Origin: Desulfocapsa sulfexigens DSM 10523 | Lineage (GTDB): Bacteria; Desulfobacterota; Desulfobulbia; Desulfobulbales; Desulfocapsaceae | Direction: 5' to 3' | Length of the DNA: 32,000 nucleotides | NCBI RefSeq assembly: GCF_000341395.1 | Contig: NC_020304.1 | Span: 780,001 to 812,000, forward strand | Shown here: positions 1-23,277 of the stretch, piece by piece | How the letters are laid out: each line of letters opens with the position of its first letter | How positions within the stretch are numbered: the stretch's first letter is position 1 | Program-made: the position numbers and the translations under genes | Notes under the pieces: model-generated | Database searches by the model: none | Seen by the model: only the letters and a program-made list of their open reading frames with translations | What the model was told of the DNA's origin: nothing

Positions 1-207
1 ATATCCACCATACACTTTAAAGCCCGTGTCGCTATCGTCACAGGTCAACAAGCCATCACAAACGTCACGGCCATAGGAAGTACCTGCGCTAATACCCATG
101 TAGAATGCATCTGTACCTTTCACCGATGGGGCTTCTTCTAATGCCACCGCAAGAGTAGATACTGATAATAGTGTTGTAGCTATGGTAATAATAGTTTTAG
201 TTTTCAT
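1..207 (-). CDS. outer-membrane beta-barrel (OmpA-like/porin family) protein; only the N-terminal 69 codons are here and the gene runs off the window edge
   Basis: Absent from the ORF track because there is no stop in the window. ATG at 207-205 is preceded by GGAGAAGGAGAA. Translation: MKTKTIITIATTLLSVSTLAVALEEAPSVKGTDAFYMGISAGTSYGRDVCDGLLTCDDSDTGFKVYGGY. This gives a signal peptide followed by beta-strand-like alternation and a C..C-D-DTGFK-x-GGY pattern that I recall from OMP beta-barrel family proteins. Confidence 0.5.
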   Translation of the reverse strand, partial: MKTKTIITIATTLLSVSTLAVALEEAPSVKGTDAFYMGISAGTSYGRDVCDGLLTCDDSDTGFKVYGGY

Positions 208-919
208 TCTTCTCCTTCTCCTGGTTATCTTCCAACTGGGTCACTGAACCCTGTGTCTCTGATTTCAGTTGAGCCCCTTCAATTTCTACAATGACAATAT
301 CTAAACCTTCACCATACTTATTATTAATTACTCTGGCAATTCCATCAGCATCATACGATACATCCATTGAAACCGTGCCAACATTCTCATTAAAGCTCTC
401 TGAGTACTTGGGACTGGACACTAGGCCCGAAAGAGGGCCAAGCAACACTGCAGCCGTTGCTGGATCCATTCCAGATGATTCGTCCCCCATTATCTCTTGT
501 CCTATATTCCAATTGACTACAATGTCACCAAGATAGTTCGTCTTCTTAGGGTGAACATTGAAGGCATAGCTTAACGCAAGGTTCTGAAGCGGTAGTGTGG
601 GGTAACCCTCATAATAATTGATACCCGTTAGAACTTGCCTACCCTGATCGAAGTCAAATGCAAACAAACGCCCCGGTAATGTCTTAATGGGAGTACCAAC
701 AGAACTTTCATTAAAGAATAGTGCACATTGGTTTGTAACGTCTTTACCATTGATTTGAACACTGATTGTCCCTGCCACTAGACCCTGTTGGTCATTCAGG
801 GCAGACAGGGACTCAACATTACCCTTCGCACCACACCCACCTAAAGTCAGTGACACCAACAATGTCAATATCACAGACAGAATCGGATATGTTAATTGTC
901 TACGACGTACCATAATCAT
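197..919 (-). CDS. hypothetical lipoprotein (240 aa), no family recognised
   Basis: Signal peptide with lipobox (LTLGG-C-G). Purine-rich RBS (AAGAGAG) upstream. Tightly packed between two other envelope genes on the same strand. Confidence 0.7.
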   Translation of the reverse strand: MIMVRRRQLTYPILSVILTLLVSLTLGGCGAKGNVESLSALNDQQGLVAGTISVQINGKDVTNQCALFFNESSVGTPIKTLPGRLFAFDFDQGRQVLTGINYYEGYPTLPLQNLALSYAFNVHPKKTNYLGDIVVNWNIGQEIMGDESSGMDPATAAVLLGPLSGLVSSPKYSESFNENVGTVSMDVSYDADGIARVINNKYGEGLDIVIVEIEGAQLKSETQGSVTQLEDNQEKEKNEN

Positions 920-946
920 CTCTCTTGTATTCAGTTTATCTTTGTA

Positions 947-1309
947 TCAATCATACCGTACTGGTTGTGGAGGCAAGTCAGATGTATCGCAATCAATCTC
1001 CTTGGCAAGAGCAAGTAACCTGATATTCCGATCTAATAGTGCATTCCCCTCAATCCCATCTGCATTTTTAAAGTCCGCCAATCCAGGCCAAACTAAAGCA
1101 CCCACGATAACATCCTGAACATCATCACCATTATTCTTATCAATCTTAGCTGTAGCGACTTCTGTGTTTGACTTATACGCAACTGTTATCTCTTGGCAGA
1201 CGAGATTAAGATCATTCGCTTGCTTCATCATTACGGGGTTAGGATCTCTAGTGTTAGCGCATCCTGTAAATAGAAATAACAAGAGAACAACACCAATAAA
1301 GTTCTTCAT
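947..1309 (-). CDS. hypothetical small lipoprotein (120 aa)
   Basis: N-terminus MKNFIGVVLLLFLFTG-C-ANT is a classic lipobox. RBS AAAGGAGA lies upstream of the ATG. First gene of a three-gene envelope operon. Confidence 0.7.
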   Translation of the reverse strand: MKNFIGVVLLLFLFTGCANTRDPNPVMMKQANDLNLVCQEITVAYKSNTEVATAKIDKNNGDDVQDVIVGALVWPGLADFKNADGIEGNALLDRNIRLLALAKEIDCDTSDLPPQPVRYD

Positions 1310-1418
1310 TTTACAATCTCCTTTCAGTGAAACATCTTGACCTTCCCATACTATATTGAGACACTTGCTTGCCGCAATGTCACATAAGTACCAACGCTTC
1401 TACTTTGCATGCCTGAGC

Positions 1419-1452
1419 GTGTCAACACCAAACATATGTTCAGTATTGACAC
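1419..1452. promoter_or_regulatory. 34-nt near-perfect palindrome (candidate operator) overlapping a minus-strand TTGACA -35 box upstream of the lipoprotein operon
   Basis: Sequence is GTGTCAACACCAAACATATGTTCAGTATTGACAC, with 14 of 17 positions self-complementary and a perfect AACATATGTT core. On the minus strand, TTGACA (1425-1420) is followed by a 17-nt spacer and TAGAAG. The site lies 110-143 nt upstream of the ATG at 1309. Confidence 0.3.
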
Positions 1453-1853
1453 TCGTTCCCACTTGCGCCCAGAGATACCGATACCACAGACTTTATAAAT
1501 AAATATAGCTACATATTTAATTCCTAAAATTATCTTGGATACCATTCCGCCCACCATCTGAGATACTCTTCATTGCTATCAAAGCTCAAGGCAACAATTA
1601 GCTTCTTATCCTTAACTATAGGTCTTGCTTATCCACACATGAGCACTCTGAGGTAGATTCCAGCTTCTTACCACCAGTTGACTTTATATATTATTCATAA
1701 GGAAGAGAGTGACTACCCTCCACTGGCGGGGGAGCCCAAAGCTAGAGCGACGACCTCCTACCCCTTCAGATTACTCCCCCCACCCTTGTCTTAAATTCGA
1801 GAGATTAAGGTAAAGAGTTAAGGAACCTAATCATAATACTAAGGAGGTTAATA

Positions 1854-2339
1854 ATGGAGATCTACGTAACTAATCTAAGTCAATACAACGCTGGGAAGCT
1901 TGTCGGGGAATGGCTGGAACTACCTTGTAGTGAGGAAGAGCTACAGGATGCTTTAAGCAGAGTTCTAGACCCTGATAAGGAATACTTTATAACGGATACA
2001 GAAGGCCTTCCCTTCACTGTTAATGAGTATGATAATATCTACAGAGTGAATGAGAAGCTAGAACAATACGTGGCTCTGGAAGCAACAGAGGCGCTCTGTG
2101 TAACCTTCTTGCTCTCGGAGGGTTACGACTGGAATTACTCAATAGAACACCATGAAGATGTGATTGTCTACGCTGAGCAGAACCTTGAGGATGTAGCTTA
2201 CTCTTTGGTTGAAGATGGGTGCTTTGGAGCTATAGGAACTTCTCTAGAGAACTATATTGATTACTCAGCAATAGCAAGAGACCTTAGCTATGATGGTTAC
2301 AGAGAGAGAGAAGAAGGAGTCTTCTATTATGTTGGGTAG
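1854..2339 (+). CDS. ardA: antirestriction protein ArdA (DNA-mimic inhibitor of type I restriction-modification)
   Basis: Strong RBS AAGGAGG 7 nt upstream. The 161-aa acidic protein aligns along its length with my memory of Tn916 Orf18/ArdA: IYVTNLSQYNAGKLVGEWL vs VYIANLGKYNEGELVGAWF, LPFTVNEYD vs LPFTVDEYT, HEDVIVY vs HQEDIII, and LENYIDYSAIARDL vs LQNYIDYQAYGRDL. Confidence 0.9.
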   Translation: MEIYVTNLSQYNAGKLVGEWLELPCSEEELQDALSRVLDPDKEYFITDTEGLPFTVNEYDNIYRVNEKLEQYVALEATEALCVTFLLSEGYDWNYSIEHHEDVIVYAEQNLEDVAYSLVEDGCFGAIGTSLENYIDYSAIARDLSYDGYREREEGVFYYVG

Positions 2340-2520
2340 ATTAACAGTGCTGAGGAAGGTCTGCCGAGGCCATAGGAGCTACTTTGAATGCAGGTGTATC
2401 TGTGGTACTATTAAGGAGATACGAGCCGATAACATCCTCTCAGGCCTCACACAGAGCTGTGGGTGCTTAAGCAGGGAGAAGGCATCTGAGAGACTCAGAA
2501 GATTACATGGAGGACAATAA
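2329..2520 (+). CDS. small Cys-rich zinc-ribbon protein of phage/mobile-element type (63 aa)
   Basis: I place the start at ATG 2329, with RBS AAGAAGGAG at 2311-2319, overlapping the ardA stop. MLGRLTVLRKV..YFECRCICGTIKEIRADNILSGLTQSCGCL matches the GRLTV...C.C.CG...V....L.SG.T.SCGC N-terminal module common in phage and island ORFs. Confidence 0.6.
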   Translation: MLGRLTVLRKVCRGHRSYFECRCICGTIKEIRADNILSGLTQSCGCLSREKASERLRRLHGGQ

Positions 2521-2773
2521 GATGTGTCTTGAGTTTAATGAGGAGAACAGGGAAGAAGAAGATGATGAGATGTACGAAGTGGGAGCTTATAAGAGTTATA
2601 CGACTGTCAGGAATTCAATGAAGCCATGGGGAACTAAGAATGCCATTGTCTACAATGATGTCATGGAGGAACTCAACTATAGTGACAATGACGGACGTTT
2701 GTATACTCTCAAGTTGTTCACACACCATCCACTAGACGACAGGATAGTTTTGGGATCATCAGATCCGCTTTAA
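2507..2773 (+). CDS. hypothetical highly acidic small protein (83-88 aa)
   Basis: Third gene of the ardA operon. ATG 2507 overlaps the upstream stop. The alternative ATG 2522 has a GGAGG 8 nt upstream and is probably the true start. The N-terminus EFNEENREEEDDEMYE is strongly acidic. No family recognised. Confidence 0.5.
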   Translation: MEDNKMCLEFNEENREEEDDEMYEVGAYKSYTTVRNSMKPWGTKNAIVYNDVMEELNYSDNDGRLYTLKLFTHHPLDDRIVLGSSDPL

Positions 2774-2854
2774 AGCTACTAACAGTCTACCAGAGAAACA
2801 ACAACAGAGAGTAACTATCCGAATAATAAGAATTAATATAGGTGAACAGTAAGT

Positions 2855-2894
2855 ATTTTGAGTCCAGTGCGTCTACCAGTTTCACCACTCCGGC
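2855..2894 (-). pseudogene. tRNA-Leu(CAA) 5' fragment, truncated immediately after the anticodon loop
   Basis: The minus strand reads GCCGGAG TG GTG AAACTGGTAGA CGC A CTGGA CTCAAAA T. That gives the acceptor 5' arm, D arm, 5' anticodon stem and a loop with anticodon CAA. The following ACTTA cannot pair with CTGGA. No variable arm, T arm or acceptor 3' strand follows. Confidence 0.8.
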
Positions 2895-2915
2895 ATAAAT
2901 AGAATGGATGGGTGA

Positions 2916-2945
2916 TTAATACTGTAAATGGTTCCGAACTGTCAA
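2916..2945 (-). promoter_or_regulatory. sigma70-like promoter of the (now truncated) tRNA-Leu gene
   Basis: On the minus strand, a perfect TTGACA (2945-2940), an 18-nt spacer and TATTAA (2921-2916). The predicted start is about 12-15 nt upstream of tRNA position 1 (2894). Confidence 0.35.
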
Positions 2946-2959
2946 GAAAAATGGCGTAT

Positions 2960-3520
2960 TCAGGAAGCTTCCACGAAAATATTACGAAGAGTATACGTAT
3001 AATTAACTGCTGACCAGACACTCAAAACCACTGAGATATACAGCAGCACCATTCCAGATTCATACTGAAATGGAATGGGGAGAAGATTCAATGGAAAAAG
3101 CAGCAAACCAACACCATAATACTGAAAATTACTTTTAATTTTGCCGAGATTGTCGGCAGCCACAACTATCCCTCTGGATGCCGCAAGACCACGAATTCCC
3201 GTTATAAAAATCTCACGACCGATTATAATCAGGCAGACCCAGGCCGGTACACGACCGAGGGGAATAAGCATAATAAGAGCCGCCGTTACCAGAAGTTTAT
3301 CGGCAAGCGGATCCATAAGTTTTCCAAGAATTGATTCTGAATGATACTTTCTTGCGAGATAGCCATCGAGCCAATCAGTAAAAGCGGCGAGTGCGAAAAC
3401 TGACCAGGCAAGAAAGGCAATGAAAACAGTCTGCTCCAGTGTCATGAGAAACACCAGCAGAGGGATCATCAGAAATCGCATCCCGGTTAGAATATTTGGC
3501 CAGGTCATAAGTTGCTTCAT
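2960..3520 (-). CDS. pgsA: CDP-diacylglycerol--glycerol-3-phosphate 3-phosphatidyltransferase
   Basis: CDP-alcohol phosphatidyltransferase motif DWLDGYLARKYHSESILGKLMDPLADKL. Multi-pass membrane protein of typical length (186 aa). Confidence 0.9.
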   Translation of the reverse strand: MKQLMTWPNILTGMRFLMIPLLVFLMTLEQTVFIAFLAWSVFALAAFTDWLDGYLARKYHSESILGKLMDPLADKLLVTAALIMLIPLGRVPAWVCLIIIGREIFITGIRGLAASRGIVVAADNLGKIKSNFQYYGVGLLLFPLNLLPIPFQYESGMVLLYISVVLSVWSAVNYTYTLRNIFVEAS

Positions 3521-3542
3521 TGGATGCCTTCACACATTTCGA

Positions 3543-4217
3543 TTATTTCTCATTGAGTGCGGCAATCCTGATTCGAGACTGCTGGATATTGCCCCTATAG
3601 CCTTTATAATGGCCCATAACTTTTTGAACATAACGAACAGTTTCTGGAATTTTCGGGATTCGCTGGAGGCGTTTCACCAATGTCGGTCCGGCATTATAAG
3701 CAGCCAGACTCAGTGGTACATTACCATCAAAGAGATCTAACATATCCCTTAGATAACGGGTACCACCGTCGATGTTTTCGTGTGGATTAAATGGGTTGCG
3801 AACATTAAGCCCCCTTGCCGTCTCTGGCATCAACTGCATTAATCCCTGAGCACCTGATTTGGACAGGGCGTAGCAATCAAAATCTGATTCAGTTTTAATA
3901 ACCGCCTTTATCAGATAGGGATCAACATTATACTGACGACTGGATCGTCTGATATGATAATCATATGAAGAGGCATCATGCCTTGTCTGCCTCGGCCGAA
4001 AAACTGGCTGAAGTGACGCGGTTACGACTCCAGGCCTTCTGCTTATCCCGACCCGTTTACTTAAAGGGCGGCAGTTAACAGAACTGTTCATATTGGTATA
4101 CTGCTTTTTCCCGGCAGCATCCACACAAACATACATCTCCGCTTCCGCCTCAGACTGCAACAGAAACAGCAGAAAAAATCCTGCAAACAGAGTTAGAAGA
4201 GTAACCGTTTTTCCCAT
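3543..4217 (-). CDS. lytic transglycosylase (SLT domain) with N-terminal DUF4124-like segment
   Basis: SLT catalytic region TESDFDCYALSKSGAQGLMQLMPETA...AAYNAGP. The start is probably MGKTVTLLTLF (ATG 4217) rather than 4259, which would overlap the upstream gene by 22 nt. Confidence 0.85.
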   Translation of the reverse strand: MGKTVTLLTLFAGFFLLFLLQSEAEAEMYVCVDAAGKKQYTNMNSSVNCRPLSKRVGISRRPGVVTASLQPVFRPRQTRHDASSYDYHIRRSSRQYNVDPYLIKAVIKTESDFDCYALSKSGAQGLMQLMPETARGLNVRNPFNPHENIDGGTRYLRDMLDLFDGNVPLSLAAYNAGPTLVKRLQRIPKIPETVRYVQKVMGHYKGYRGNIQQSRIRIAALNEK

Positions 4218-4237
4218 ATGATTTTTTCCTGCTACTT

Positions 4238-4882
4238 CTATTTCTTTCTGTTTTCCCAATCAGATAAAAACTGTTCAATCCCTATGTCGGTGAGCGGATG
4301 CTTAGCAAGCTGTTCTATCACTTTCAACGGAATAGTCGCAATATCAGCTCCGATGGCGGCAGATTCCATAACGTGCTGCGGACTACGAACGCTTGCCACT
4401 ATCACCTCTGTCTGAAATCCATAAATACGGAAAATCGACATAATTTCACTTACCAGATCCATTCCCGGAGTACCTATATCATCCAGACGGCCAACAAAGG
4501 GAGAGACATAGGTTGCCCCGGCTTTTGCAGCAAGCAGCGCCTGGGCAGCTGAGAATATCAGAGTGACATTGGTTTTAATACCAAGAGCAGTGAGTTGCTT
4601 AACAGCCTTAATGCCCTCCATGATCATGGGAATTTTAATCACAATATTATCACTCATGGCAGCAAGTACTTTTGCCTCCTCAATCATCCCCTCTGCTTCA
4701 AGACTCACAACTTCAGCACTGATGGGACCATCAACAACGGCCACGATGTCTCTAAGGATCTCCTCAAAAGGCTTATTCTCTTTGGCAATCAGTGATGGAT
4801 TGGTGGTCACTCCATCAACCATGCCCATGGCAATACCTTTCTTGATCTGTTCGAGATTGGCGGTATCTATAAAAAATTTCAT
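4238..4882 (-). CDS. tal: short-type transaldolase / fructose-6-phosphate aldolase family
   Basis: [15 protein letters not shown]...[14 protein letters not shown] and KIP...G...TN.TLIFS are hallmarks of the ~215-aa Tal/Fsa family. The start ATG 4882 has an AAGGAGAAAAG RBS and an ATGA overlap with the upstream gene. Confidence 0.9.
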
Positions 4883-5157
4883 TTCTTTTCTCCTTCTTGA
4901 CTGACAAATAAATTGCAGCACTCTTCACTGCAGAAATACAGGATTTCACCTCTTGTCTGAGAATTGAGTCGAACAGCCTGCTCCCTGGGAACCAGTTTGT
5001 GACAGACCGGATCTTCAACCAGCACATCGGCAATCGGCCCGTCATCCTGTTTGTGAATTTCTTCCTTTGTATCCCTTTTTTTCTTCCAGTCACTGGCCAG
5101 CAACCGATATCCAAGGTACAGAAGAAGGGCTATGATAATTAGTTTTATCGGACCCAT
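4879..5157 (-). CDS. membrane-anchored YHS/TRASH-type metal-binding domain protein
   Basis: N-terminal TM helix ([17 protein letters not shown]). C-terminal DPVCHKLV....[11 protein letters not shown] is the YHS/TRASH cysteine pattern. Confidence 0.7.
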
Positions 5158-5200
5158 GTCAATAGTATAGTATCATTTTCTCTAAAAAGTCGATGGCAAA

Positions 5201-5734
5201 TCATGCCCAGGTATCACGCTTGATGTCTTGAACGGCTACTATTCCTGCGTCCATCTGTTGCAGAAGCTTTTGATGCATCGCCACTGCTGTCAGTCCATTA
5301 GCTGGGTCAATGTGCTCCGGATCAATCTCTACAAGAGGCTCCAGCACAAAGAGTCTTTCCCCAATATGAGGATGCGGCAACACAAGCTTACTGGATGTCA
5401 GGACACACCCATCAAAGTAAAGAATATCCAGGTCAAGCAGACGATCCTCATACCCTTTCCCAACCATTTTTCTGCTACGGCCAAATTCTTTCTCCACCTG
5501 CTGCAACACCACAAGCAGAGATTCGGGGGGAAGAGTTGTCTCCAGAATCCCGACTGCATTCAGAAAAAGATTACTGCTGTCCATCCCCACGGGTTCAGTA
5601 ATATAAGGGCTGGAAAGACAGATGGAATCAAGCGCCTCCTCATTGCCCAGTCGTCGCCAGGCTTTCTGCAAGATTTGTTTACTCTCGCCAAGGTTTGAGC
5701 CAAGCGCCACCCAGACCCGACTTCTACCACTCAA
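5201..5734 (-). CDS. folK: 2-amino-4-hydroxy-6-hydroxymethyldihydropteridine diphosphokinase (HPPK)
   Basis: VWVALGSNLG..., PYITEPVG, FLNAV, RLLDLDILYFD and LPHPHIGERLFVLEPL are canonical HPPK motifs. Confidence 0.9.
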   Translation of the reverse strand: MSGRSRVWVALGSNLGESKQILQKAWRRLGNEEALDSICLSSPYITEPVGMDSSNLFLNAVGILETTLPPESLLVVLQQVEKEFGRSRKMVGKGYEDRLLDLDILYFDGCVLTSSKLVLPHPHIGERLFVLEPLVEIDPEHIDPANGLTAVAMHQKLLQQMDAGIVAVQDIKRDTWA

Positions 5735-5736
5735 GC

Positions 5737-6546
5737 CTATAGATCCTGTAATCCCAGGACATCAAACATGGTGTAAAGGCCCGGTTTCTTGTCGGCAATC
5801 CAGGCAGCAGCTTTTGCTGCGCCCTGAGCAAAATTATCACGACTGTGGGCACGATGAGTGATTTCAATCCGTTCCCCGGGGCCACAAAAATAAATAGTGT
5901 GCTCCCCAACGATATCGCCGCCGCGAACGGTCTGAACACCAATCTCTTCCACGCTGCGTTCACCAATTATGCCATTTCGTTCGTAGACTCCGACTTCAGC
6001 AAGGTTTCTCTTCACCCCGGAGGCCGCCATCTCAGCAAGTTTCAGAGCAGTACCCGAGGGTGCATCTTTTTTCTTGTTGTGATGGAGTTCCACAATCTCT
6101 ATATTGTAATCATCCCCGAGGATAGAAGCGGTTTTAGCTGCGAGTTTAAAAAGGACATTGACACCTACTGCCATATTGGGCGCCTGGACACAGGGAAAAT
6201 CAGTGGAAAGCTGTTTCAACTCTTCAAGATTCTCTGCACTGAGGCCCGTGGTACCAATAACCATGGCAGTCTTATGTGCTGCTGCTATTTTTGCAAAACC
6301 CATTGTGGCTTTGTGAAAAGTGAAGTCGATAATCACGTCACCCTTATCGATTACAGCTTCCAGTCCTTCCTCAATGGTCACACCAGCACTGCCCCAGCCA
6401 CCCATTTCACCGGGATCACGCCCTATAGCCGAACTTCCTGTTGCCTCAAATGCAGCAGCATAATGAAGTTCAGGGTGCTGCGAAACCATATATCCAATAC
6501 GCTGCCCCATTCTTCCGGCAGCGCCTGCAATAATTACATTTATCAT
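5737..6546 (-). CDS. dapB: 4-hydroxy-tetrahydrodipicolinate reductase
   Basis: N-terminal GAAGRMG dinucleotide fold, ELHHNKKKDAPSGTA motif, 269 aa. Confidence 0.95.
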   Translation of the reverse strand: MINVIIAGAAGRMGQRIGYMVSQHPELHYAAAFEATGSSAIGRDPGEMGGWGSAGVTIEEGLEAVIDKGDVIIDFTFHKATMGFAKIAAAHKTAMVIGTTGLSAENLEELKQLSTDFPCVQAPNMAVGVNVLFKLAAKTASILGDDYNIEIVELHHNKKKDAPSGTALKLAEMAASGVKRNLAEVGVYERNGIIGERSVEEIGVQTVRGGDIVGEHTIYFCGPGERIEITHRAHSRDNFAQGAAKAAAWIADKKPGLYTMFDVLGLQDL

Positions 6547-6570
6547 CTGTTTCTTCCTTAAGCTGTTTTC

Positions 6571-7452
6571 CTACAGAAGACCTGCATCTTTCATAGCTCC
6601 TTTCAGAGTTTGCAGAGCCTTGTCATCAATCTCGGTCAATGGCAGTCGTGGTAAACCATTTTTGATTTTACCCATGAGTTCCACGCCTTTTTTTGCGGGA
6701 ACCGGATTTGGGGCCGCAAACATCGATGTCATCAGGGGGAAGAGACTGTAGTGAATCTCATTTGCCTTTTTGATATCACCGGAAAGTGCAGCTTCCATCA
6801 GATCTGCCATACCACGAGGATGCACATTCGATGTAACTGAGATAACACCTTTACCCCCTATAAAAACTGTTGGCATTGAGGTGAAATCATCCCCTGAGAG
6901 GACGATGAAATCGTCTGGACACTGACGAATTATCTCACTTATCTGCTGCAACGATGCAGAGGCTTCCTTGATACCGATGATATTTTCAAGTTCAGCCAGA
7001 CGTGCGACAGTCTCAGGCAGCATATTGGTAACGGTTCGGCTCGGAACATTATACAGGATAACTGGGATATCAACAGCTTCTGCAATTGCCTTAAAGTGTT
7101 GATACAGGCCTTCCTGACTTGGCTTATTGTAATAAGGGACCACGGAAAGAGTGGCATCCGCCCCGCTGGCCTTTGCACTTTTCGCAAGATCAATGGATTC
7201 GGCGGTTGAGTTGGCGCCCGTTCCGGCAATTACTGGAACACGTCCGGCAACAGTTTTTACTGTAAGCTCAATAATCCGTTTATGCTCATCAAAGCTCACA
7301 GTTGCTGATTCACCCGTCGTTCCACAGGGGACGATTCCGTGAGTGCCATTTTCAATCTGAAAATTAATCAGATCAACCAGCCCCTGCTCGTCAATTTTAT
7401 TATTAATAAAAGGGGTAACAATTGCAACGATTGCGCCATGATATTTTTCCAT
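6571..7452 (-). CDS. dapA: 4-hydroxy-tetrahydrodipicolinate synthase
   Basis: GAIVAIVTPF, GTTGES and YNVPSRT motifs, 293 aa. Confidence 0.95.
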   Translation of the reverse strand: MEKYHGAIVAIVTPFINNKIDEQGLVDLINFQIENGTHGIVPCGTTGESATVSFDEHKRIIELTVKTVAGRVPVIAGTGANSTAESIDLAKSAKASGADATLSVVPYYNKPSQEGLYQHFKAIAEAVDIPVILYNVPSRTVTNMLPETVARLAELENIIGIKEASASLQQISEIIRQCPDDFIVLSGDDFTSMPTVFIGGKGVISVTSNVHPRGMADLMEAALSGDIKKANEIHYSLFPLMTSMFAAPNPVPAKKGVELMGKIKNGLPRLPLTEIDDKALQTLKGAMKDAGLL

Positions 7453-7561
7453 GATTCTATTCTCCTTCTCTTCCTTCTCTATTAGGCTGAAGACCGAAGG
7501 TTACAGGCTGAAGTAAAAGAATAAATACCCTCTCCCTCTTCCTCTTTCCCTTCTGCCTCGT

Positions 7562-8404
7562 TCATTCCAGTGATTCGGCCGTTAGCTGGCCGATGTAGAT
7601 AATTCGTGCCGGTCCCTGCAGATATACATTCTCTGCAGTACCATCCTGATTCAGATCAAAGACTATGGTCAATTTTTCTCCACCCGAGGTGATAACAGTC
7701 ACCGGCGAGACCACAAGTCCCCTGTTCGCCGCAAATATTGCGGAAGCAACAGCCCCTGTCCCGCAGGCCATGGTTTCATCCTCCACGCCCCGCTCATATG
7801 TGCGAACCCGGACAGTGCCATCATTCAGAGATTGAACAAAGTTGACATTCGTCCCAGCGGGAGCAAACTGCTCATGGAATCGAATTGCATGACCCCATTT
7901 TTTCACAGCAATTTCCGCGCCCTCATCTTTAAAAATAACCGCATGGGGAACTCCGGAGTTCATAAAAGAAATCTCCGTCGCCTCTCCGTCAAGCTCTGCT
8001 TCAAGACCACTTCGATAATCAAAGGGTGCCGTCATCAACAGGCTTACATCTCCGCTATCATTTAAAACCTCGGCCTCAATAATTCCCGCCAGGGTCTCAA
8101 AAGACATTTTCCTTTCTGCAATCCCTCTGGCAAATGCAAAGCGGGCTGCACATCGGGCACCGTTTCCACACATTTCAGCTATGGAGCCATCTCCATTGTA
8201 AAACCGCCAGCTAAAATCCGCCTTCTCTGAACCTTCAATAAAAATAACTCCATCTGCACCAACGGAAAACATCCGACGGCAGACACGGCGTACGAAATCG
8301 GACTGTTTATCTTCCGGTACCAAAAGTCTGCGATGGTCAATGACTATAAAATCATTGCCAGTACCGCTCATTTTGGCAAAGGGTACAGGAAATTCGATAT
8401 CCAT
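7562..8404 (-). CDS. dapF: diaminopimelate epimerase
   Basis: SGTGNDFIVID plus two catalytic Cys motifs, MCGNGARC and ACGTGA. I prefer the start at ATG 8404 (MDIEFPVPF), 1 nt after the lysA stop. Confidence 0.9.
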   Translation of the reverse strand: MDIEFPVPFAKMSGTGNDFIVIDHRRLLVPEDKQSDFVRRVCRRMFSVGADGVIFIEGSEKADFSWRFYNGDGSIAEMCGNGARCAARFAFARGIAERKMSFETLAGIIEAEVLNDSGDVSLLMTAPFDYRSGLEAELDGEATEISFMNSGVPHAVIFKDEGAEIAVKKWGHAIRFHEQFAPAGTNVNFVQSLNDGTVRVRTYERGVEDETMACGTGAVASAIFAANRGLVVSPVTVITSGGEKLTIVFDLNQDGTAENVYLQGPARIIYIGQLTAESLE

Positions 8405-8405
8405 A

Positions 8406-9677
8406 CTATTTCTCCACAAATTCAGGAATACTTTCACCCTGAATCAATGATTCCATACTTTCGCGCTCGCGTATAATTCTAAACTGATCTCCGGAAACCA
8501 TCACTTCTGCAACACGAGGCCTGGAATTATAATTAGATGCCATGGTAAAACCATAGGCACCAGCGCTGAAAACCGCCAGCAGGTCGCCCTGCTCGACATG
8601 TGGTAACCTGATATCCTTTCCAAGAAAATCACCAGTCTCACAGATAGGACCAACGACATCAGCAACCTGAACGAGATCGACATCTTCCTTAACTGGTTCA
8701 ATACGATGATACGCACCATACAGGCTGGGACGGGTGAGATCGTTCATCCCGGCATCGACCACCACGAAATGCTTCTCTTCTGCACCACCTCTGTTGCTTT
8801 TGGTGTACTGAACTTCAGTAACCAGAATCCCGGCATTCCCGACAATAACCCGACCCGGCTCAAGTATCAGAGTGGCCGATAAACCATCCAGCTCTTCCTT
8901 GATGGCACTTGCGTACTCTTTAGGATGGGGTGGTTCTTCATCATCATAAGTGATGCCCACCCCGCCACCAAGATCGATGTACTGTATAGTAATTTCATTT
9001 TCAGCCAGGCGTCCGACAAAGGCTTTAAGCTTTCGCAGAGTTTCAACAAAAGGTGATATAAGGGTCAACTGAGAACCAATGTGACAGCTCACGCCCTTCA
9101 CCTCAATATGTTCCATTGCCTCAGCTTGCAGATACAGATCAAGTGCCTCATGAATGGGAATACCGAACTTGTTCTTAGCCAGACCCGTGGAAATGTACGC
9201 ATGGGTTTTGGGATCAACATCAGGATTCACCCGAAAGGAGACGGGAGCCTTCACGCCCATATCTGCAGCCACTGTGTTTAGACGATGCAGCTCCTGTTCT
9301 GATTCAACATTAAAAAAGAGGATATTGGATTGCAGACCGTAACGCAGTTCGCTTTCAGTCTTCCCTACACCCGAATAGATTATCTTCCCAGGATCGATAC
9401 CAGCCTGCAGAGCACGAAACAACTCTCCACCGGAAACAATATCCGCACCACCGCCAAGGCCTCCAAAAAGCGACAAAATGGCAATATTCGAACAACTCTT
9501 CACCGCAAAACAGGTAATATGGTCTATCCCTTCAAATCCTGAGTCAAAGGCCTGAAAATGCCGGGTCAGAGTCGCTTTTGAGTAGAGATAGAAAGGCGTC
9601 CCTACTTCTTTTGCAATATCGCTGACAGCAAGATCTTCACAGAAGAGCTCACCGTTTTTATATTCAAAATGATTCAT
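8406..9677 (-). CDS. lysA: diaminopimelate decarboxylase
   Basis: PLP fold-III decarboxylase of 423 aa with FAVKSCSN (PLP Lys), GGGVGI, CETGD and SAGAYG motifs. Confidence 0.95.
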   Translation of the reverse strand: MNHFEYKNGELFCEDLAVSDIAKEVGTPFYLYSKATLTRHFQAFDSGFEGIDHITCFAVKSCSNIAILSLFGGLGGGADIVSGGELFRALQAGIDPGKIIYSGVGKTESELRYGLQSNILFFNVESEQELHRLNTVAADMGVKAPVSFRVNPDVDPKTHAYISTGLAKNKFGIPIHEALDLYLQAEAMEHIEVKGVSCHIGSQLTLISPFVETLRKLKAFVGRLAENEITIQYIDLGGGVGITYDDEEPPHPKEYASAIKEELDGLSATLILEPGRVIVGNAGILVTEVQYTKSNRGGAEEKHFVVVDAGMNDLTRPSLYGAYHRIEPVKEDVDLVQVADVVGPICETGDFLGKDIRLPHVEQGDLLAVFSAGAYGFTMASNYNSRPRVAEVMVSGDQFRIIRERESMESLIQGESIPEFVEK

Positions 9678-9715
9678 GGTTCTTTGTAAGACTATCTCGT
9701 GATAACTGAAAAATA

Positions 9716-10771
9716 TTAATGACGTATGCTGGCCTCACGAGATTGTTCACTCTCGTTTGGAGTTTCCGCCTTGTCGTAAGCGGTGACAGAATAAAAGTAA
9801 TTTCCATCAGCGGCTACATTCACGTCCTCAAAAATGGAGTAGACACCACTCACATCACCAATCACCCTGGCTGTTTTTTCATCCGCACTGCGTCGATATA
9901 CCTTATATCCCTTCACATCTGCATCCTGGGACTTGTCCCAGAAAATCTTAATACCACCACCGGTCTGCACTGCCGTTATTCCGGTGGGAGCCGCGGGGGG
10001 AGTCTGATCTATGGCAGTAGCTGCCACTGACCCTGAAAGACCTCCACTTACGGCAACTCCATCAACCATAAGGAGCGACTGAACCTTATAATAAAAGGTT
10101 TCCCCATTTTTCAGTGATTTATCAACAAACCGAGTAGCTTTTACAGGTTCACCAATGCTTTCAAAGCCTGCATTATCCCTGCTACGCTGCACCTGATAGA
10201 GCAGCGGATAACTGACCTTCTCTTCATCCATAAGCTGCGTCACGGTCTGCCAGCTGACAACAACACTGGAATCAACCCCTTTTGCCGTCACACCTTCCGG
10301 AGCTTTGGCTGGAATATGCCACACAAAAGAGACGATATTAGAGTCTGGACTCGCCGCCCACCAACTTGTTCTGGCATTGACCTTGAAAAAGTATTTATGT
10401 CCAGAACGCAGCAGTGAAGTCTCATATGTACCCTGCCGTGTTTTTTCCGGATCAACCACCCCACCCGGAACCTGTATGGCTTCATTAAAGGGAATCGGGC
10501 ATGTGGGACAATAATCTTTCAGTGGAACAACTGCCCTGTACACATCGAAGGTAGCAATGTCGGTAAGGTCAGTCCCTCTAATCGTCTCCTTAGGAAAGCT
10601 CCAGTTCAGGATTACCCCTTTTTCACTCACTGAATACCGTAAATCTTCAATGGCCTTGGGAACAATGGAATCAGGAGGAACGGGTTCAGTCTTATACCCA
10701 CAACCGCCTGCCAGAAACAGTGTTCCAGTAAGAAGAATTGCCCCTGCAAACTGTGCTTTTCTCAACATCAT
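9716..10771 (-). CDS. lipoprotein with about three fibronectin-type-III-like repeats
   Basis: Lipobox LFLAGG-C-GYK. Three repeats end in aromatic-rich strands: YFFKVNA, FYYKVQS and YFYSVTAYD. The start overlaps the argH stop (TAATG). Confidence 0.75.
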   Translation of the reverse strand: MMLRKAQFAGAILLTGTLFLAGGCGYKTEPVPPDSIVPKAIEDLRYSVSEKGVILNWSFPKETIRGTDLTDIATFDVYRAVVPLKDYCPTCPIPFNEAIQVPGGVVDPEKTRQGTYETSLLRSGHKYFFKVNARTSWWAASPDSNIVSFVWHIPAKAPEGVTAKGVDSSVVVSWQTVTQLMDEEKVSYPLLYQVQRSRDNAGFESIGEPVKATRFVDKSLKNGETFYYKVQSLLMVDGVAVSGGLSGSVAATAIDQTPPAAPTGITAVQTGGGIKIFWDKSQDADVKGYKVYRRSADEKTARVIGDVSGVYSIFEDVNVAADGNYFYSVTAYDKAETPNESEQSREASIRH

Positions 10772-12174
10772 TACTCTCCAATTCCCATTTGTTTTTCAGC
10801 AGCTTGCACTGCTTCTTCAACCCGCAGTGTTGCGGTTCCTCCGGTCGAGACTCTGGAGTTCACAGAACCTTCAACACTCAACACATCAAAAACATCCTCA
10901 TCAATGACAGGAGAAAAGTCCCGCATCTCCGAGAGAGTCAAATCGGTCAATTCACAGCCCTTTTCTATACAGGTGGCTACTGCCCGCCCCACGATGCCGT
11001 GTGCCTCACGAAAGGGCACATCATGGAGGACAAGATAATCGGCGAGATCCGTGGCCGTCATAAATCCCGTCCGGGTTGCCTCCCGCATGCGCCTGGTATT
11101 GAACTCCAGGTTCCCGAGCATTTCAGCCATAATGGCAAGTGAGGCAGATACGGTATCCACCGCATCAAAAACAGGTTCTTTGTCCTCCTGAAGATCCCGG
11201 TTATACGTCAACGGCAAACCTTTCATCAGGGTAATAAGGGACATAAGACTGCCCACCACTCTGCCGGACTTACCACGGATCAGTTCAGGGATATCTGGAT
11301 TCTTTTTCTGTGGCATAATGGAAGAGCCGGTGCAGAACTTATCTGCAATACTGACAAAAGAAAATTCCTGGCTAGACCAGAGCACCAACTCTTCTGAGAG
11401 TCGTGAGAGGTGAAGCTGGATCATGGTACAACAGGAGACAAATTCAATGGCAAAATCACGATCCCCGGAAGTGTCCATGGAATTGGCCGTCACCCTGTCA
11501 AAACCAAGGAGCCCGGCAACCATTTCCCTGTCAATGGGGAGACCTGTTCCAGCCATGGCCGCCGCGCCAAGGGGCAGAACATTAATCCGCTTCCTGCAAT
11601 CTGCAATGCGCTCACTATCACGGCCGAACATTTCATAATAGGCCATCATGTGATGGGCAATCAGTACCGGTTGTGCCCGTTGCATATGGGTATAGCCAGG
11701 CATCACCTGTCCCATGTATCTCCTGGCAAGCCCCACAAATGCTCTGCGTATATTCTCAAGCAGTACAACAAAACGGTCACACTGATCACGAAGATAAAGA
11801 CGAAGATCGAGTGCTATCTGATCATTGCGGCTCCGGGCACTGTGCAGTTTGGCTCCGGCCGGACCAATTGCATCGATAAGCGCCTTTTCAATATTCATAT
11901 GAATATCTTCAAGCTCACTCTTGAAGGAAAATTCCCCATTATCAATAGCTGTTTCAATATCGGACAGGCCATCGATGATAGCGCTCAACTCTTCTGCCGT
12001 GAGCAGGTCATTGGCTGCCAGCATGGTAGCATGGGCTTTGCTGCCCATAATATCATACGAATACAGACGCCTGTCGTAGCTGATCGATTCGGTAAAGGCT
12101 TCCACCGAGGCCGCGGTAGCCCCTTCAAACCGTCCGCCCCAGAGCTTTTGAGATGTATTTTTTTTCACGTTCAA
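10771..12174 (-). CDS. argH: argininosuccinate lyase
   Basis: LWGGRF N-terminus and the fumarate-lyase signature GSSIMPQKKNPD. The start codon is TTG at 12174 (GTG at 12168 is possible). Confidence 0.95.
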   Translation of the reverse strand: MNVKKNTSQKLWGGRFEGATAASVEAFTESISYDRRLYSYDIMGSKAHATMLAANDLLTAEELSAIIDGLSDIETAIDNGEFSFKSELEDIHMNIEKALIDAIGPAGAKLHSARSRNDQIALDLRLYLRDQCDRFVVLLENIRRAFVGLARRYMGQVMPGYTHMQRAQPVLIAHHMMAYYEMFGRDSERIADCRKRINVLPLGAAAMAGTGLPIDREMVAGLLGFDRVTANSMDTSGDRDFAIEFVSCCTMIQLHLSRLSEELVLWSSQEFSFVSIADKFCTGSSIMPQKKNPDIPELIRGKSGRVVGSLMSLITLMKGLPLTYNRDLQEDKEPVFDAVDTVSASLAIMAEMLGNLEFNTRRMREATRTGFMTATDLADYLVLHDVPFREAHGIVGRAVATCIEKGCELTDLTLSEMRDFSPVIDEDVFDVLSVEGSVNSRVSTGGTATLRVEEAVQAAEKQMGIGE

Positions 12175-12181
12175 CTATCCA

Positions 12182-13378
12182 CTACTTCTTTTGCATGGCT
12201 ATGATCTGCAAGCGCAAACCGTTGAGACGGATAAAGCCACCGGCATCGGCCTGATTGTAAACAGTATCCTCTTCAAATGTGGCAAAACTTTCCTGATACA
12301 GTGAGTAATCCGATTTCTTTCCAACTGAGACACAATTCCCCTTGTACAGTTTCATCCGCACTGTGCCGTTCACCGTTTTCTGACTCTCATCCATGGTCAC
12401 CTGGAGCAGTTCCCGCTCGGGGGAAAACCAGAAACCATTATAGACAAGCTCTGCGTAGCGTGGAACCAGAGAATCCCTGATTCGCATCACTTCCCTGTCC
12501 ATACACATGGTTTCCAGGTCACGATGTGCGTTGCGAAGCAGGGTACCACCGGGAGTTTCATAGACGCCGCGGGACTTCATACCCACAAAACGGTTTTCAA
12601 GGAGATCAAGACGACCGACACCATTGGCACCGGCAACCTTATTCAGGGCCGTGAGGAGGGGCAGGGGATCCATGCGTTCGCCATTAATGGCAACGGGATT
12701 CCCTTTCTCAAAATCAATCTCAACATAGGTCGGCTTATCCGGTGCATTTTCAGGGGAGACGGTAAGCTTGTACATATCCTCATCGGGCTCGTTCCATGGA
12801 TCTTCCAGAAGTCCGCCTTCAAAACTGATGTGAAGAATGTTCTCATCGGAGCTGTAGGGGTTCTTCTTGGTAGTGGGTACCGGAATATTGTGTTTTTTGG
12901 CAAACTCCTCAAGCTTGGCCCGGGAGTTCAAATCCCAGATACGCCAGGGGGCAATAATCTTTAAACTTGGATCAATTCCGAGATAGGAAAGTTCAAAACG
13001 AACCTGATCATTTCCTTTGCCGGTGGCACCATGACTCACGGCATCCGCACCTTCAGCATGGGCTATGCGTACCTGCTCTTTTCCGATAATAGGACGGGCA
13101 AGGGATGTTCCAAGAAGATAGGATCCCTCATAGATCGCATTGCAACGAAAAGCCGGAAAGATATAATCTTCAACAAACTCCTGACGGAGATCGGAAATAA
13201 TAACTTTTTCGGCCCCGGTAGCCATTCCTTTTTTGCGAATTGCGTCCCAGTCCTCCGTCTGACCAACATCGGCAGCATAAGCGATAACAGGACACTCATA
13301 TTCTTCTTCCAACCATTTCAAAATGACTGAAGTGTCCAATCCGCCAGAATAGGCCAGTACGATTTTTTTAACGTCCAT
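12182..13378 (-). CDS. argG: argininosuccinate synthase
   Basis: [12 protein letters not shown]-binding motif, [13 protein letters not shown], 398 aa. Confidence 0.95.
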
Positions 13379-13551
13379 TATATTTTTCTACCTCTCCCGC
13401 AACATCAAGCCACGGAAATTGTTTTTCTTTTATTACAATTCGCTAACCCAAGTAAGTGATCAGGGTGCCGTAGATTAGTACAGGCATGATCAGCCGCAAT
13501 AGTCTCCTCTATGCGGACGATTGTGACCGTACGAATATGCGGTGCTCCTGG

Positions 13552-16711: not shown

Positions 16712-16939
16712 ATCCCTTTGTCCTTTTTATAGAAATCTATATTTTCGTTTTAAATCAATTAAGTACATCCATATCGCATACAAGACATTCTCATTCTACT
16801 GATTCATCTGATTGAAGTAAAGAAATCTTTCTTTACCTTTCAGCTCCGGGATTTCTTTACTTTCTCAAGCACCAAGGCTATATTAGGCCTGGTATTTGCA
16901 TTGGACTCTTTCTTACTTTGTTTACCAGGAGACTTTTTT

Positions 16940-22946: not shown

Positions 22947-23277
22947 ATTGTTTCTCTCCATCTAAAATTTAGTATTCTCTTTTAACATAGAGCACATCAG
23001 CTTTCCATTACTCTTTTATTTAGATATTTTATTTTTTTTTAACAAAAATCAACCGAAACCAAGAGTTCACGATCCAGAAAAACGATTTCATCAAAGATAT
23101 CAGATTGAAGCCATTTAGGATGAAGGCTGCATGCAAAGAGAAAAAAGTACTGTTTATCAGCACGTTACAGAATATCAGAAACTTGAGCAATAGTATCCAT
23201 GGTTCCAATTCTTACTGGTATCATTTGATACTGTCATTATTTGTCGATATTCGATATTATTGATGATAGGTCAATAT

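What the first reader, a model, noticed from the sequence alone, without database searches (positions are those of the whole stretch)
2774..2959. tRNA-Leu(CAA) gene cut off right after its anticodon loop marks an island/chromosome junction
Minus strand 2894->2855 is a flawless 5' half of a type II Leu tRNA, with acceptor arm, D arm, 5' anticodon stem and a CTCAAAA loop. The very next bases (ACTTACTGTTCACC...) cannot close the anticodon stem. I found no variable arm, T arm or 3' acceptor strand anywhere in 1310-2854.

Housekeeping genes lie to the right: pgsA ends 65 nt upstream, and a pgsA-tRNA linkage also exists in E. coli as pgsA-glyW-cysT-leuZ. To the left is ardA and other foreign-looking cargo. 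tRNA-Leu(CAA) (leuX in E. coli) is a classic, dispensable island target.

Normal integrase recombination regenerates a whole tRNA, so a naked 5' half is abnormal. Two explanations fit. The element may supply the 5' part, leaving the intact gene at its far end. Alternatively the tRNA may have been destroyed by a secondary deletion or an illegitimate event.
Basis: partly seen in the sequence, partly recalled or inferred. Interest (0 to 1): 0.7.

Follow-up and report, generated by a model that had tools for sequence, protein, structure and literature searches.

The report
Displaced tRNA-Leu half beside mobile element
The half tRNA-Leu gene is real: it is the stump left when a ~9 kb mobile element inserted at the anticodon loop and apparently brought its own promoter and front half of the tRNA, a known but rare reversal of the usual arrangement.

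Summary
Window 2894->2855 (minus strand) is the first 40 nt of tRNA-Leu(CAA). It is identical to 120 intact Desulfobulbales genes, and nothing tRNA-like follows it.

The window comes from Desulfocapsa sulfexigens DSM 10523. A sister strain (98.3% identity) has the intact gene, and its homology to the window stops exactly at 2855.

The DNA to the left is one end of a ~9 kb integrative element, about 10 genes long. It encodes a tyrosine integrase, probably an excisionase and a primase, cargo, ArdA and a small HNH-like ORF.

The integrase end, about 7 kb left of the window, carries a second copy of the tRNA promoter: 30 nt identical to window 2947-2918, where the contig ends. Homologous elements elsewhere show the integrase diverging from a promoter plus an intact tRNA. 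Homologous ArdA ends abut bare 5' halves of tRNA-Phe and tRNA-Arg, cut at the same place.

So the element replaces the 5' part of its target rather than the 3' part. I did not obtain the sequence of the far-end tRNA in this strain. The kind is known but rare; this is a new member.

The parts
2960..3520 (-). pgsA (CDP-diacylglycerol--glycerol-3-phosphate 3-phosphatidyltransferase; AGF77251), the last chromosomal gene before the junction
   Evidence: Pfam CDP-OH_P_transf, E=6.5e-40. Identity and accession. Synteny with sister strain L130.
2855..2947 (-). Repeat R: the tRNA promoter, leader and first 40 nt of tRNA-Leu(CAA). This is the chromosomal copy at the ArdA-side junction (attL). Its first 30 nt (2947-2918) recur next to the integrase gene at the other end of the element.
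   Evidence: The last 30 nt of L129 equal window 2947->2918. L001 ends at 2918 and L002 at 2947, the pattern expected of a k=31 graph branch at the start of a repeat. Whether the second copy extends beyond 30 nt was not seen.
2915..2945 (-). Promoter-like element of the tRNA gene: -35 TTGACA (2945-2940), an 18-nt spacer, then TATTAAT (2921-2915). It is still attached to the truncated gene.
   Evidence: Read from the sequence. TTGACA and TATTAnT are conserved in L029, L104 and L130. The simple consensus scan did not flag it.
2855..2894 (-). Displaced 5' part of tRNA-Leu(CAA): gene nt 1-40, which is the acceptor 5' strand, the D arm, the 5' anticodon stem, the loop CTCAAAA and one T
   Evidence: 40/40 identity to intact genes in 120 stretches. 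No tRNA called by ARAGORN or Rfam.
2854..2855 (.). Element/chromosome junction, at the 3' edge of the recombination core. Homology with the sister strain ends here.
   Evidence: L130 aligns to window 13505..2855 at 98.3% and stops at 2855. L130 then continues as an intact tRNA.
2774..2791 (-). Pair of arm-type repeats, GGTAGAC then AGTAGCT, 11 nt apart. They are presumed binding sites for the integrase arm-binding domain.
   Evidence: The same paired motif at 11-12 nt spacing occurs at the ArdA ends of L128, L029 and L104, and beside the integrase start codon in L129, L131, L132, L038 and L104. The variant covaries (GGC) between L029 and L038, which come from the same genome. Background is about 1 hit per kb. 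Binding is inferred.
2507..2773 (+). UWK_00670 (AGF77250; annotated as 83 aa, longest ORF 88 aa), a poorly conserved terminal ORF of the element
   Evidence: Accession. No Pfam or PHROG hit. Only an N-terminal remnant is present in L104.
2290..2520 (+). Unannotated 76-aa Cys-rich ORF overlapping the end of ardA. It is conserved next to ArdA in every family member seen.
   Evidence: PHROG phrog_374 (HNH endonuclease), E=6.6e-15. Homologues in L029, L104, L126 and L128.
1854..2339 (+). ardA anti-restriction gene (AGF77249)
   Evidence: Pfam ArdA, E=9.9e-34. 100% identical to the D. sulfexigens DSM 10523 protein.
1..2854 (.). Right-hand 2.85 kb of the ~9 kb element. It includes cargo lipoprotein genes at 947-1309 (minus; AGF77248) and 197-919 (minus). 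The rest of the element lies left of the window.
   Evidence: L002 extends 1,616 nt further left. GenBank accession numbers put the integrase (AGF77241) eight genes before ArdA (AGF77249). The element is colinear with the one in L132.

Best explanation
The 40-nt fragment is the chromosomal 5' part of tRNA-Leu(CAA). It was displaced when a ~9 kb integrative element recombined with the gene at the anticodon stem-loop.

The element, read from its far end towards the window, carries:
- a tyrosine integrase with an arm-binding domain;
- by homology, a small excisionase-like HTH protein and a primase-polymerase;
- cargo genes;
- ArdA and a small HNH-like ORF.

Unlike the usual tRNA-targeting islands, the part of the tRNA gene carried in this element's attachment site is the promoter plus the 5' half, placed beside the start of the integrase gene. 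Integration therefore gives two junctions. At the ArdA end, the host promoter and 5' half are stranded; this is the finding. At the integrase end, the element's promoter and 5' half are fused to the host 3' half, giving an intact chimeric tRNA.

The crossover lies within gene nt 26-40 (CACTGGACTCAAAAT), most likely in the 7-nt anticodon loop.

Shown: the truncation, the empty site in a sister strain, the integrase, the promoter copy at the integrase end, and the same architecture in homologous elements. Inferred: that the promoter copy in this strain continues into an intact tRNA, the exact crossover position, and that the element is still mobile.
For: 1. The truncated gene is real.

2. The source is Desulfocapsa sulfexigens DSM 10523. 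GenBank protein accessions are serial along the genome: integrase AGF77241, OmpA-like AGF77246, lipoprotein AGF77248, ArdA AGF77249, UWK_00670 AGF77250, pgsA AGF77251. The integrase and ArdA are therefore eight genes apart in one small element.

3. Contig L129 holds that integrase. Upstream of its start codon come the arm repeats CTGGTAGCCTTCTGGTAGAC, then about 135 nt, then TCTTGACAGTTCGGAACCATTTACAGTATT, where the contig ends. Those 30 nt equal window 2947->2918, which is the tRNA promoter.

4. The L129 integrase end aligns with that of L131, which continues into an intact tRNA-Leu(CAA). That tRNA is followed by a 3' flank beginning ATGCCAAG, a start also seen after this tRNA in about nine other loci (ATGCCAAG/ATGCCAGG).

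5. L132 has the same layout with tRNA-Leu(TAA), and L038 with tRNA-Leu(CAA).

6. ArdA-end homologues abut bare 5' halves of other tRNAs. L128 has tRNA-Phe(GAA), 38/39 identical to intact Phe genes and cut after CTGAAAAT. L126 has tRNA-Arg(TCT), cut 2 nt after the loop. ARAGORN calls no tRNA in either.

7. Sister strain L130 (98.3% identity) has the intact gene and no element, and its homology ends exactly at 2855.

8. Contig L138 ends exactly 30 nt after a mismatch in a partial tRNA copy. That is the expected signature of another copy in the same sample that joins the loop CTCAAAAT to CCAGCG....

9. Paired arm-type repeats occur at both ends and covary between the two ends within one genome.
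Against: The intact far-end tRNA in this strain is therefore inferred, not seen.

Logan contig L002 runs through the right edge of the repeat (2855) without breaking. If the second copy were identical over the whole 93 nt, a k=31 graph should branch there. So either the second copy differs somewhere in its 5' half, or the assembler resolved the branch; I cannot tell which.

No contig from any genome carries both ends of one element.

Two relatives with the same module have an intact tRNA at the ArdA end: L029 (whole tRNA duplicated) and L104 (3' part duplicated). The family is therefore not uniformly 5'-replacing.
Confidence: 0.85

Rival explanations
1. Secondary deletion or illegitimate recombination. 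A conventionally integrated island once sat behind an intact tRNA, and a later deletion removed the tRNA 3' half together with the island's terminal sequence.
For: Relatives L029 and L104 have an intact tRNA-Leu followed by the same HNH-like-ORF/ArdA module. The module's divergence (69-71%) is similar to that of the flanking housekeeping DNA (about 72%). That would fit an old shared island that was damaged in this lineage.
Against: The same cut, 1-2 nt after the anticodon loop, is found next to homologous ArdA modules at two other tRNA genes in other genomes. The integrase end of this very element carries the tRNA promoter. The 98.3%-identical sister strain lacks the element altogether, so the insertion is recent rather than ancestral.
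Confidence: 0.04
2. Disruptive integration without reconstruction. attP and attB share only the short anticodon-loop core, so the tRNA is split into a bare 5' half here and a bare 3' half at the far end. Function is then either lost or supplied by a separate, complete element-borne tRNA, as in phage 'tRNA-dependent lysogeny'.
For: Integration of this type exists in mycobacteriophages (PMC10865867). I did not see the far-end tRNA of this strain. L002 does not break at 2855, which might mean that no identical second 5' half exists.
Against: The integrase end carries the tRNA promoter directly. In the homologue L131, the intact tRNA has element sequence upstream and a conserved chromosomal-type flank immediately downstream. 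It therefore sits at the junction itself rather than inside the element, and no extra 3' half follows it. The end of L138 indicates a further copy in which the loop is joined to the 3' half.
Confidence: 0.08
3. Assembly or window artefact: a chimeric join inside a tRNA gene.
For: Short-read assemblies do break at this repeat (L001, L129, L029, L104, L131 and L132 all end there).
Against: The source is a closed isolate chromosome of 3,986,761 nt. The independent contig L002 reproduces the junction base for base. The same architecture recurs in unrelated assemblies.
Confidence: 0.01

Closest known systems
[quoted passage not shown]
   Same: A tyrosine-integrase element recombines with a tRNA gene so that the 5' part of the gene, not the 3' part, is what lies within the repeat. 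The orientation of the tRNA relative to int is reversed. PMC6563490 states that such recombination is 'considerably less frequent' than 3'-distal recombination.
   Different: This is a different host clade (Desulfobulbales) and a different element: an integrase/excisionase/primase/ArdA module of about 9 kb. Here the repeat demonstrably includes the promoter. I could not read the 2002 paper (not held), so what I say about its content beyond its title and how it is cited rests on memory.
Canonical tRNA-targeting genomic islands and P4-type integrases (3'-replacing; Williams 2002 sublocation classes, from memory)
   Same: Both involve a tyrosine integrase with an N-terminal arm-binding domain (PF13356), a crossover at the anticodon stem-loop, and tRNA-Leu(CAA) as a hot spot. 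Integrases 52-54% identical to this family sit conventionally just downstream of intact tRNA-Leu(CAA) in L053, L074 and L108.
   Different: Canonical elements leave an intact tRNA next to int and a 3' fragment at the far end. Here the stranded piece is a 5' fragment at the end away from int, and int is upstream of and divergent from the tRNA.
tRNA-dependent lysogeny of mycobacteriophages (Guerrero-Bustamante & Hatfull 2024, PMC10865867)
   Same: Integration at a tRNA gene leaves a non-functional host fragment at a junction, and the element brings tRNA sequence that keeps the cell supplied.
   Different: In those phages attP and attB share only about 10 bp, neither junction is functional, and a separate complete phage tRNA complements the loss. 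Here the homologous elements show a functional gene rebuilt at the integrase-side junction.
P4-like satellites and other small integrase/AlpA-type excisionase/primase islands
   Same: The core gene set in homologue L132 is an integrase, a 56-aa HTH_17 excisionase-like protein and an 839-aa Prim-Pol/PriCT_2 protein. From memory, P4 itself targets leuX, which is tRNA-Leu(CAA).
   Different: No capsid-redirecting or helper-interaction genes were identified. An ArdA module is present. The integration polarity is the opposite of P4's.

Membership tests
Functional tRNA-Leu(CAA) gene | Complete cloverleaf: 3' anticodon stem, long variable arm, T arm and 3' acceptor strand | tested here: not met
   Only gene nt 1-40 are present. 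ARAGORN finds 0 genes, Rfam finds no tRNA match, and the sequence after nt 40 differs from all 120 intact genes.
Canonical 3'-replacing tRNA island | Intact tRNA at one junction, a direct repeat of the tRNA 3' part at the other, and int next to the intact tRNA's 3' end | tested here: not met
   The junction in the window holds a 5' fragment. The integrase lies at the other end, upstream of the tRNA promoter copy. The pattern does fit two neighbouring islands at the same locus, the dnd island and the hipBA islet.
Reverse-polarity (5'-replacing) tRNA-integrating element | Stranded chromosomal 5' fragment, with its own promoter, at the junction away from int | tested here: met
   Window 2947-2855. 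The upstream region matches sister strain L130 apart from 1 nt.
Reverse-polarity (5'-replacing) tRNA-integrating element | Element-borne copy of the promoter and 5' part beside the integrase gene | tested here: inconclusive
   The first 30 nt of the promoter copy are seen at the end of contig L129. The remainder is not in any sequence I could obtain. Homologues L131, L132 and L038 have the full promoter plus tRNA there.
Reverse-polarity (5'-replacing) tRNA-integrating element | Intact, chimeric tRNA at the integrase-side junction | not testable with these tools
There is indirect support from the end of L138 and from L131.
Reverse-polarity (5'-replacing) tRNA-integrating element | Unoccupied target in a close relative, with homology ending at the core | tested here: met
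   L130 is 98.3% identical, carries an intact tRNA-Leu(CAA), and its alignment ends at window 2855.
Tyrosine recombinase (phage integrase family, arm-binding type) | Phage_integrase catalytic domain plus an N-terminal arm DNA-binding domain | tested here: met
   P0169 (370 aa, AGF77241) is recorded with PF00589 and a weak PF13356 hit, and matches PHROG phrog_1 (integrase) at E=6.5e-55. The L038 homologue scores PF00589 at 7.2e-24 and PF13356 at 5.2e-07.
Integrative and conjugative element (ICE) | Type IV secretion, coupling protein and relaxase genes | tested here: inconclusive
   None were found in the parts seen (window 1-2854, L002, L129, and the L132 homologue). The element has only about 10 genes. 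About 1.7 kb of the D. sulfexigens element was not seen.

The most novel reading that the evidence does not exclude
Within one integrase clade, the side of the tRNA gene that the element replaces may be evolutionarily labile. The ancestral attachment site would carry a whole promoter-plus-tRNA cassette, as in the JAIPEF element (L029 plus L038), where the direct repeat is the complete gene. That cassette can then decay to a 5'-only form (D. sulfexigens, L126, L128) or to a 3'-only form (L104). The symmetric anticodon stem-loop core works in either case, and one intact gene always survives.

A further possibility is that the stranded 5' half, still driven by its promoter and reading antisense into the UWK_00670/HNH-like/ardA genes, is transcribed and modulates the anti-restriction module.
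Probability: 0.25. Interest if true: 0.6.

Novelty: new member of a known kind. Interest (0 to 1): 0.42.

Why it matters
The finding shows that a bare tRNA 5' half next to foreign genes need not mean gene decay. It can be the regular footprint of an element that replaces the 5' end and promoter of its target.

Most island-finding tools look for an intact tRNA plus a 3' repeat (my own knowledge), so they may miss or mis-bound such elements.

The family described here targets at least four tRNA genes: Leu-CAA, Leu-UAA, Phe-GAA and Arg-UCU. It has variants in which the whole gene, the 5' part or the 3' part is duplicated. That makes it a compact natural system for asking how integrases that use the symmetric anticodon stem-loop choose orientation.

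For D. sulfexigens itself, the result defines a three-island array at one tRNA gene: this element, a dnd-type DNA-modification island and a hipBA islet.

Tried and rejected
- Group I/II intron or split-tRNA reading: Rfam gave no hit in 1300-3000 even at E<=10. No 3' half was found in the window, L002 or L129.
- Random deletion: rejected after two further bare 5' halves turned up at the same sublocation.
- Fetching the far end directly failed several ways. The exact look-up of the RefSeq integrase P0060 found nothing. The GenBank version P0169 gave only a 2.7 kb contig that ends 30 nt into the repeat. The hipA route reached the far side of a 13-gene dnd island, not the tRNA.
- The metagenome scan with the integrase gave only three distant loci.
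- Two viral-contig scans gave nothing.
- The key papers (PMC139527, PMC100330, PMC7192596) are not held.
- The global alignment of the window junction with L104 was uninformative.
- The simple promoter scan did not flag the conserved TTGACA-N18-TATTAAT, and no terminator was found after the half gene.

Full report
**1. The observation**

On the minus strand, window 2894->2855 reads GCCGGAGTGGTGAAACTGGTAGACGCACTGGACTCAAAAT, followed by ACTTACTGTTCACC. The 40 nt parse as follows: acceptor 5' strand GCCGGAG, then TG, a D arm, the 5' anticodon stem CTGGA, the loop CTCAAAA with anticodon CAA, and one further T.

In every one the next bases are CCAGCG...GGTTCGAnTCC...CTCCGGCACCA, a complete type II tRNA-Leu, wherever the held sequence reaches that far. 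ARAGORN called 116 intact tRNA-Leu(CAA) genes in the loci held.

In the window, ARAGORN finds no tRNA. Rfam finds nothing at gathering score and no tRNA match even at E<=10 in 1300-3000.

pgsA (2960-3520, minus strand) ends 65 nt upstream of the fragment, and ArdA lies at 1854-2339.

**2. Source and reality of the junction**

The ArdA protein is 100% identical to that of Desulfocapsa sulfexigens DSM 10523, on a record of 3,986,761 nt, which is a closed chromosome. An independent Logan contig, L002, is identical to the window from its start to 2947 and so spans the junction. This is not an assembly artefact.

**3. The empty site**

Contig L130 comes from a sister strain. It is 98.3% identical to the window over 10,656 nt and has the same gene order from the arginine- and lysine-biosynthesis genes down to pgsA. 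The alignment covers window 13505..2855 and stops exactly at 2855.

L130 then continues with the 3' half of an intact tRNA-Leu(CAA) at 10615-10701. It carries no ArdA element. The DNA left of 2855 is therefore an insertion specific to this strain, and its boundary sits one base after the anticodon loop.

**4. What the insertion is**

GenBank protein accessions run serially along this genome:

| Accession | Product |
|---|---|
| AGF77241 | integrase ('XerD', 370 aa) |
| AGF77246 | OmpA-like protein |
| AGF77248 | lipoprotein |
| AGF77249 | ArdA |
| AGF77250 | UWK_00670 |
| AGF77251 | pgsA |

The element therefore has about ten genes.

The integrase has a Phage_integrase catalytic domain and an arm-binding N-terminal domain.

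A homologous element in L132 is colinear with the D. sulfexigens pieces. It has an integrase, a 56-aa HTH_17 excisionase-like protein, an 839-aa Prim-Pol/PriCT_2 primase and several small ORFs. It also has the same 230/238-aa and 120-aa lipoprotein genes that precede ArdA in L002.

Summing the pieces gives about 9 kb. No conjugation genes were seen, so this looks like a small integrative (mobilisable or satellite-like) element rather than an ICE. About 1.7 kb of the D. sulfexigens copy was not seen.

**5. The other end carries the tRNA promoter**

Contig L129 holds the D. sulfexigens integrase. Reading away from its start codon gives CAT|TCTGGTAGCCTTCTGGTAGAC, then about 135 nt, then ...CCCTGAAATC|TCTTGACAGTTCGGAACCATTTACAGTATT, where the contig ends.

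Those last 30 nt are identical to window 2947->2918. That stretch holds the -35 box TTGACA and the spacer of the tRNA promoter.

The pgsA-side contig L001 also ends 30 nt into this stretch, at 2918, and L002 ends at 2947. That is the pattern expected from a k=31 assembly graph at the start of a repeat. The integrase end of the element therefore carries a second copy of at least the start of the promoter-plus-tRNA unit.

**6. Homologous elements show what follows**

The L129 integrase end aligns along its length with that of L131. L131 continues through TATTAAT and a leader into an intact tRNA-Leu(CAA). That tRNA is followed by ATGCCAAG..., a start also seen (as ATGCCAAG or ATGCCAGG) after this tRNA in about nine other loci, and as ATGACAAG in L130. 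In L131 the upstream part is therefore element and the downstream part is chromosome, so the tRNA sits on the junction.

L132 shows the same layout with tRNA-Leu(TAA). L038 shows it with tRNA-Leu(CAA), with the integrase start 142 nt upstream and divergent.

**7. The bare 5' half is systematic**

ArdA homologues sit in other genomes at the edge of their islands, together with the same small Cys-rich ORF. In two cases the next thing is again a tRNA 5' half.

- **L128:** GCCGGGATAGCTCAGTCGGTAGAGCAACGGACTGAAAAT|ACCTCG. It is 38/39 identical to intact Desulfobulbales tRNA-Phe(GAA) genes, which continue CCGTG.
- **L126:** GCGCCCATAGCTCAGCTGGATAGAGCAACGGCCTTCTAAGC|TCTG. It parses as a tRNA-Arg(TCT) 5' half cut 2 nt after the loop, and it lies next to cysS.

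ARAGORN calls no tRNA in either locus. Three different tRNA genes cut at the same sublocation next to the same module argue strongly against a random deletion.

**8. Core and arm sites**

Partial tRNA copies left by conventionally oriented events at this locus begin at gene nt 25/26 (CACTGGA...). They are seen in L104, L130 and L137. The repeat in the window ends at nt 40. The overlap, CACTGGACTCAAAAT, is the 5' anticodon stem plus the loop. I infer that the crossover lies here, probably in the 7-nt loop.

Pairs of xGTAGRY repeats spaced 11-12 nt apart lie within 100-200 nt of both ends. In the window they are at 2791-2785 and 2780-2774, although the second copy there, AGTAGCT, departs from the motif. 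At the integrase end they lie right beside the start codon.

The variant is GGC at both L029 and L038, which come from one genome, and GAT in L131 and L132. The Arg-targeting element L126 has a different 11-nt-spaced repeat, GTTGAAACT. These are plausible arm-type integrase sites, but binding is inferred.

**9. Variants within the family**

In genome JAIPEF the direct repeat is the whole tRNA gene. L029 has pgsA, an intact tRNA and then the ArdA end. L038 has the integrase, a promoter, an intact tRNA and then the flank.

In L104 the integrase is frameshifted and ArdA is truncated. The copy at its integrase end starts at nt 26 and runs 57 nt past the tRNA.

So the same module can sit behind an intact tRNA. 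What distinguishes D. sulfexigens, L126 and L128 is that the ArdA side of their attachment site has no 3' half. A whole-gene attachment site that decays to either polarity would explain all three states. This is an inference.

**10. Indirect evidence for the far-end tRNA in this strain**

Contig L138 holds hipB and a partial tRNA copy that has a G at gene nt 32. It ends exactly 30 nt after that mismatch. In a k=31 graph this means another sequence in the sample shares CTCAAAATCCAGCGGGCTTTGGCCCGTGTC but with a different preceding base. An intact tRNA (...GGA|CTCAAAATCCAGCG...) would produce exactly that.

Against a simple picture, L002 does not break at 2855. The second copy may therefore differ somewhere in gene nt 10-29, or the assembler resolved the branch. 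I could not settle this.

**11. Wider locus**

hipA of D. sulfexigens is AGF77227, thirteen genes before the integrase. Contig L137 shows, in order:

- a partial tRNA copy (gene nt 25-69) at the contig start;
- hipB and hipA;
- the flank that follows the tRNA in the sister strain;
- a 16-nt tRNA 3' remnant (TCCGACCTCCGCACCA);
- a dnd-type island (PAPS_reduct, DndD, DndE/FtsK-like, AAA_15 plus DUF4435).

In the direction of the tRNA, the locus therefore reads:

pgsA -> stranded 5' half -> this element -> (inferred intact tRNA) -> dnd island -> 3' remnant -> hipBA islet -> partial tRNA.

The sister strain has only the hipBA islet.

**12. Comparison with what is known**

[quoted passage not shown] It cites Zhao & Williams 2002 and several archaeal cases.

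The present element is a new bacterial example of that rare kind. It has a clear empty site and homologues at four tRNA genes.

It differs from tRNA-dependent lysogeny (PMC10865867), in which neither junction is functional.

Related integrases (52-54% identity) at the same tRNA in L053, L074 and L108 use the ordinary arrangement.

**13. Verdict**

The finding is real and is explained by a known but uncommon mechanism. The missing piece is the direct sequence of the far-end tRNA in this strain.

Noticed in passing
L137 1-2100 and 2339-9200; L130 10615-13060: The same tRNA-Leu locus carries two further islands in D. sulfexigens. One is a dnd-type island (PAPS_reduct, DndD, DndE/FtsK-like, AAA_15 plus DUF4435), bounded by a 16-nt tRNA 3' remnant, TCCGACCTCCGCACCA. 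The other is a hipBA islet, bounded by a partial tRNA copy starting at gene nt 25/26. The sister strain has only the hipBA islet.
   Followed up: partly
window 2290-2520 (+): An unannotated 76-aa Cys-rich ORF overlaps the 3' end of ardA. It matches PHROG phrog_374 (HNH endonuclease, E=6.6e-15) and is conserved next to ArdA in L029, L104, L126 and L128.
   Followed up: partly
L131 9704-9790 (-): The junction tRNA-Leu(CAA) of this homologous element has G1.U72 and G5.U68 wobble pairs in its acceptor stem (5' GCCGGAG against 3' CTTCGGT). That would fit a chimera of an element-derived 5' half and a host 3' half. However, G1.U72 also occurs in a few ordinary-looking loci (L009, L020, L075).
   Followed up: no
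L002 (= window -1615..2947), at window 2855: The Logan contig runs through the right edge of the promoter-plus-5'-half repeat without a break, yet it begins exactly at the left edge. This is unexpected if the two copies are identical over all 93 nt. The second copy may differ in gene nt 10-29.
   Followed up: partly
P0060 / P0169 (integrase, about 7 kb left of the window): RefSeq now annotates the integrase as 310 aa (WP_407637467), which lacks the arm-binding N-terminus. The 370-aa ORF (AGF77241) is intact in contig L129 and aligns end to end with its homologues.
   Followed up: partly
L006-L125, sequence just 3' of tRNA-Leu(CAA): A few sequence types recur immediately downstream of this tRNA across genera, for example ...AAGGCTTTATCCC, GTAAAaTCAAGGGTTT and TCCATTCACTTCCG. 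Several genomes hold two intact copies. This suggests several other island families use the same site.
   Followed up: no
L104 311-1394 and 7244-7757: This looks like a decaying copy of the element. The integrase is split into two frames, ArdA is truncated, and the UWK_00670 homologue is reduced to about 20 codons. The direct repeat runs from tRNA nt 26 to 57 nt past the gene.
   Followed up: partly
window 16501-17000 and 23001-25000: These are patches of low G+C (0.34-0.42, against about 0.48 elsewhere) within the housekeeping part of the window. They were not examined.
   Followed up: no
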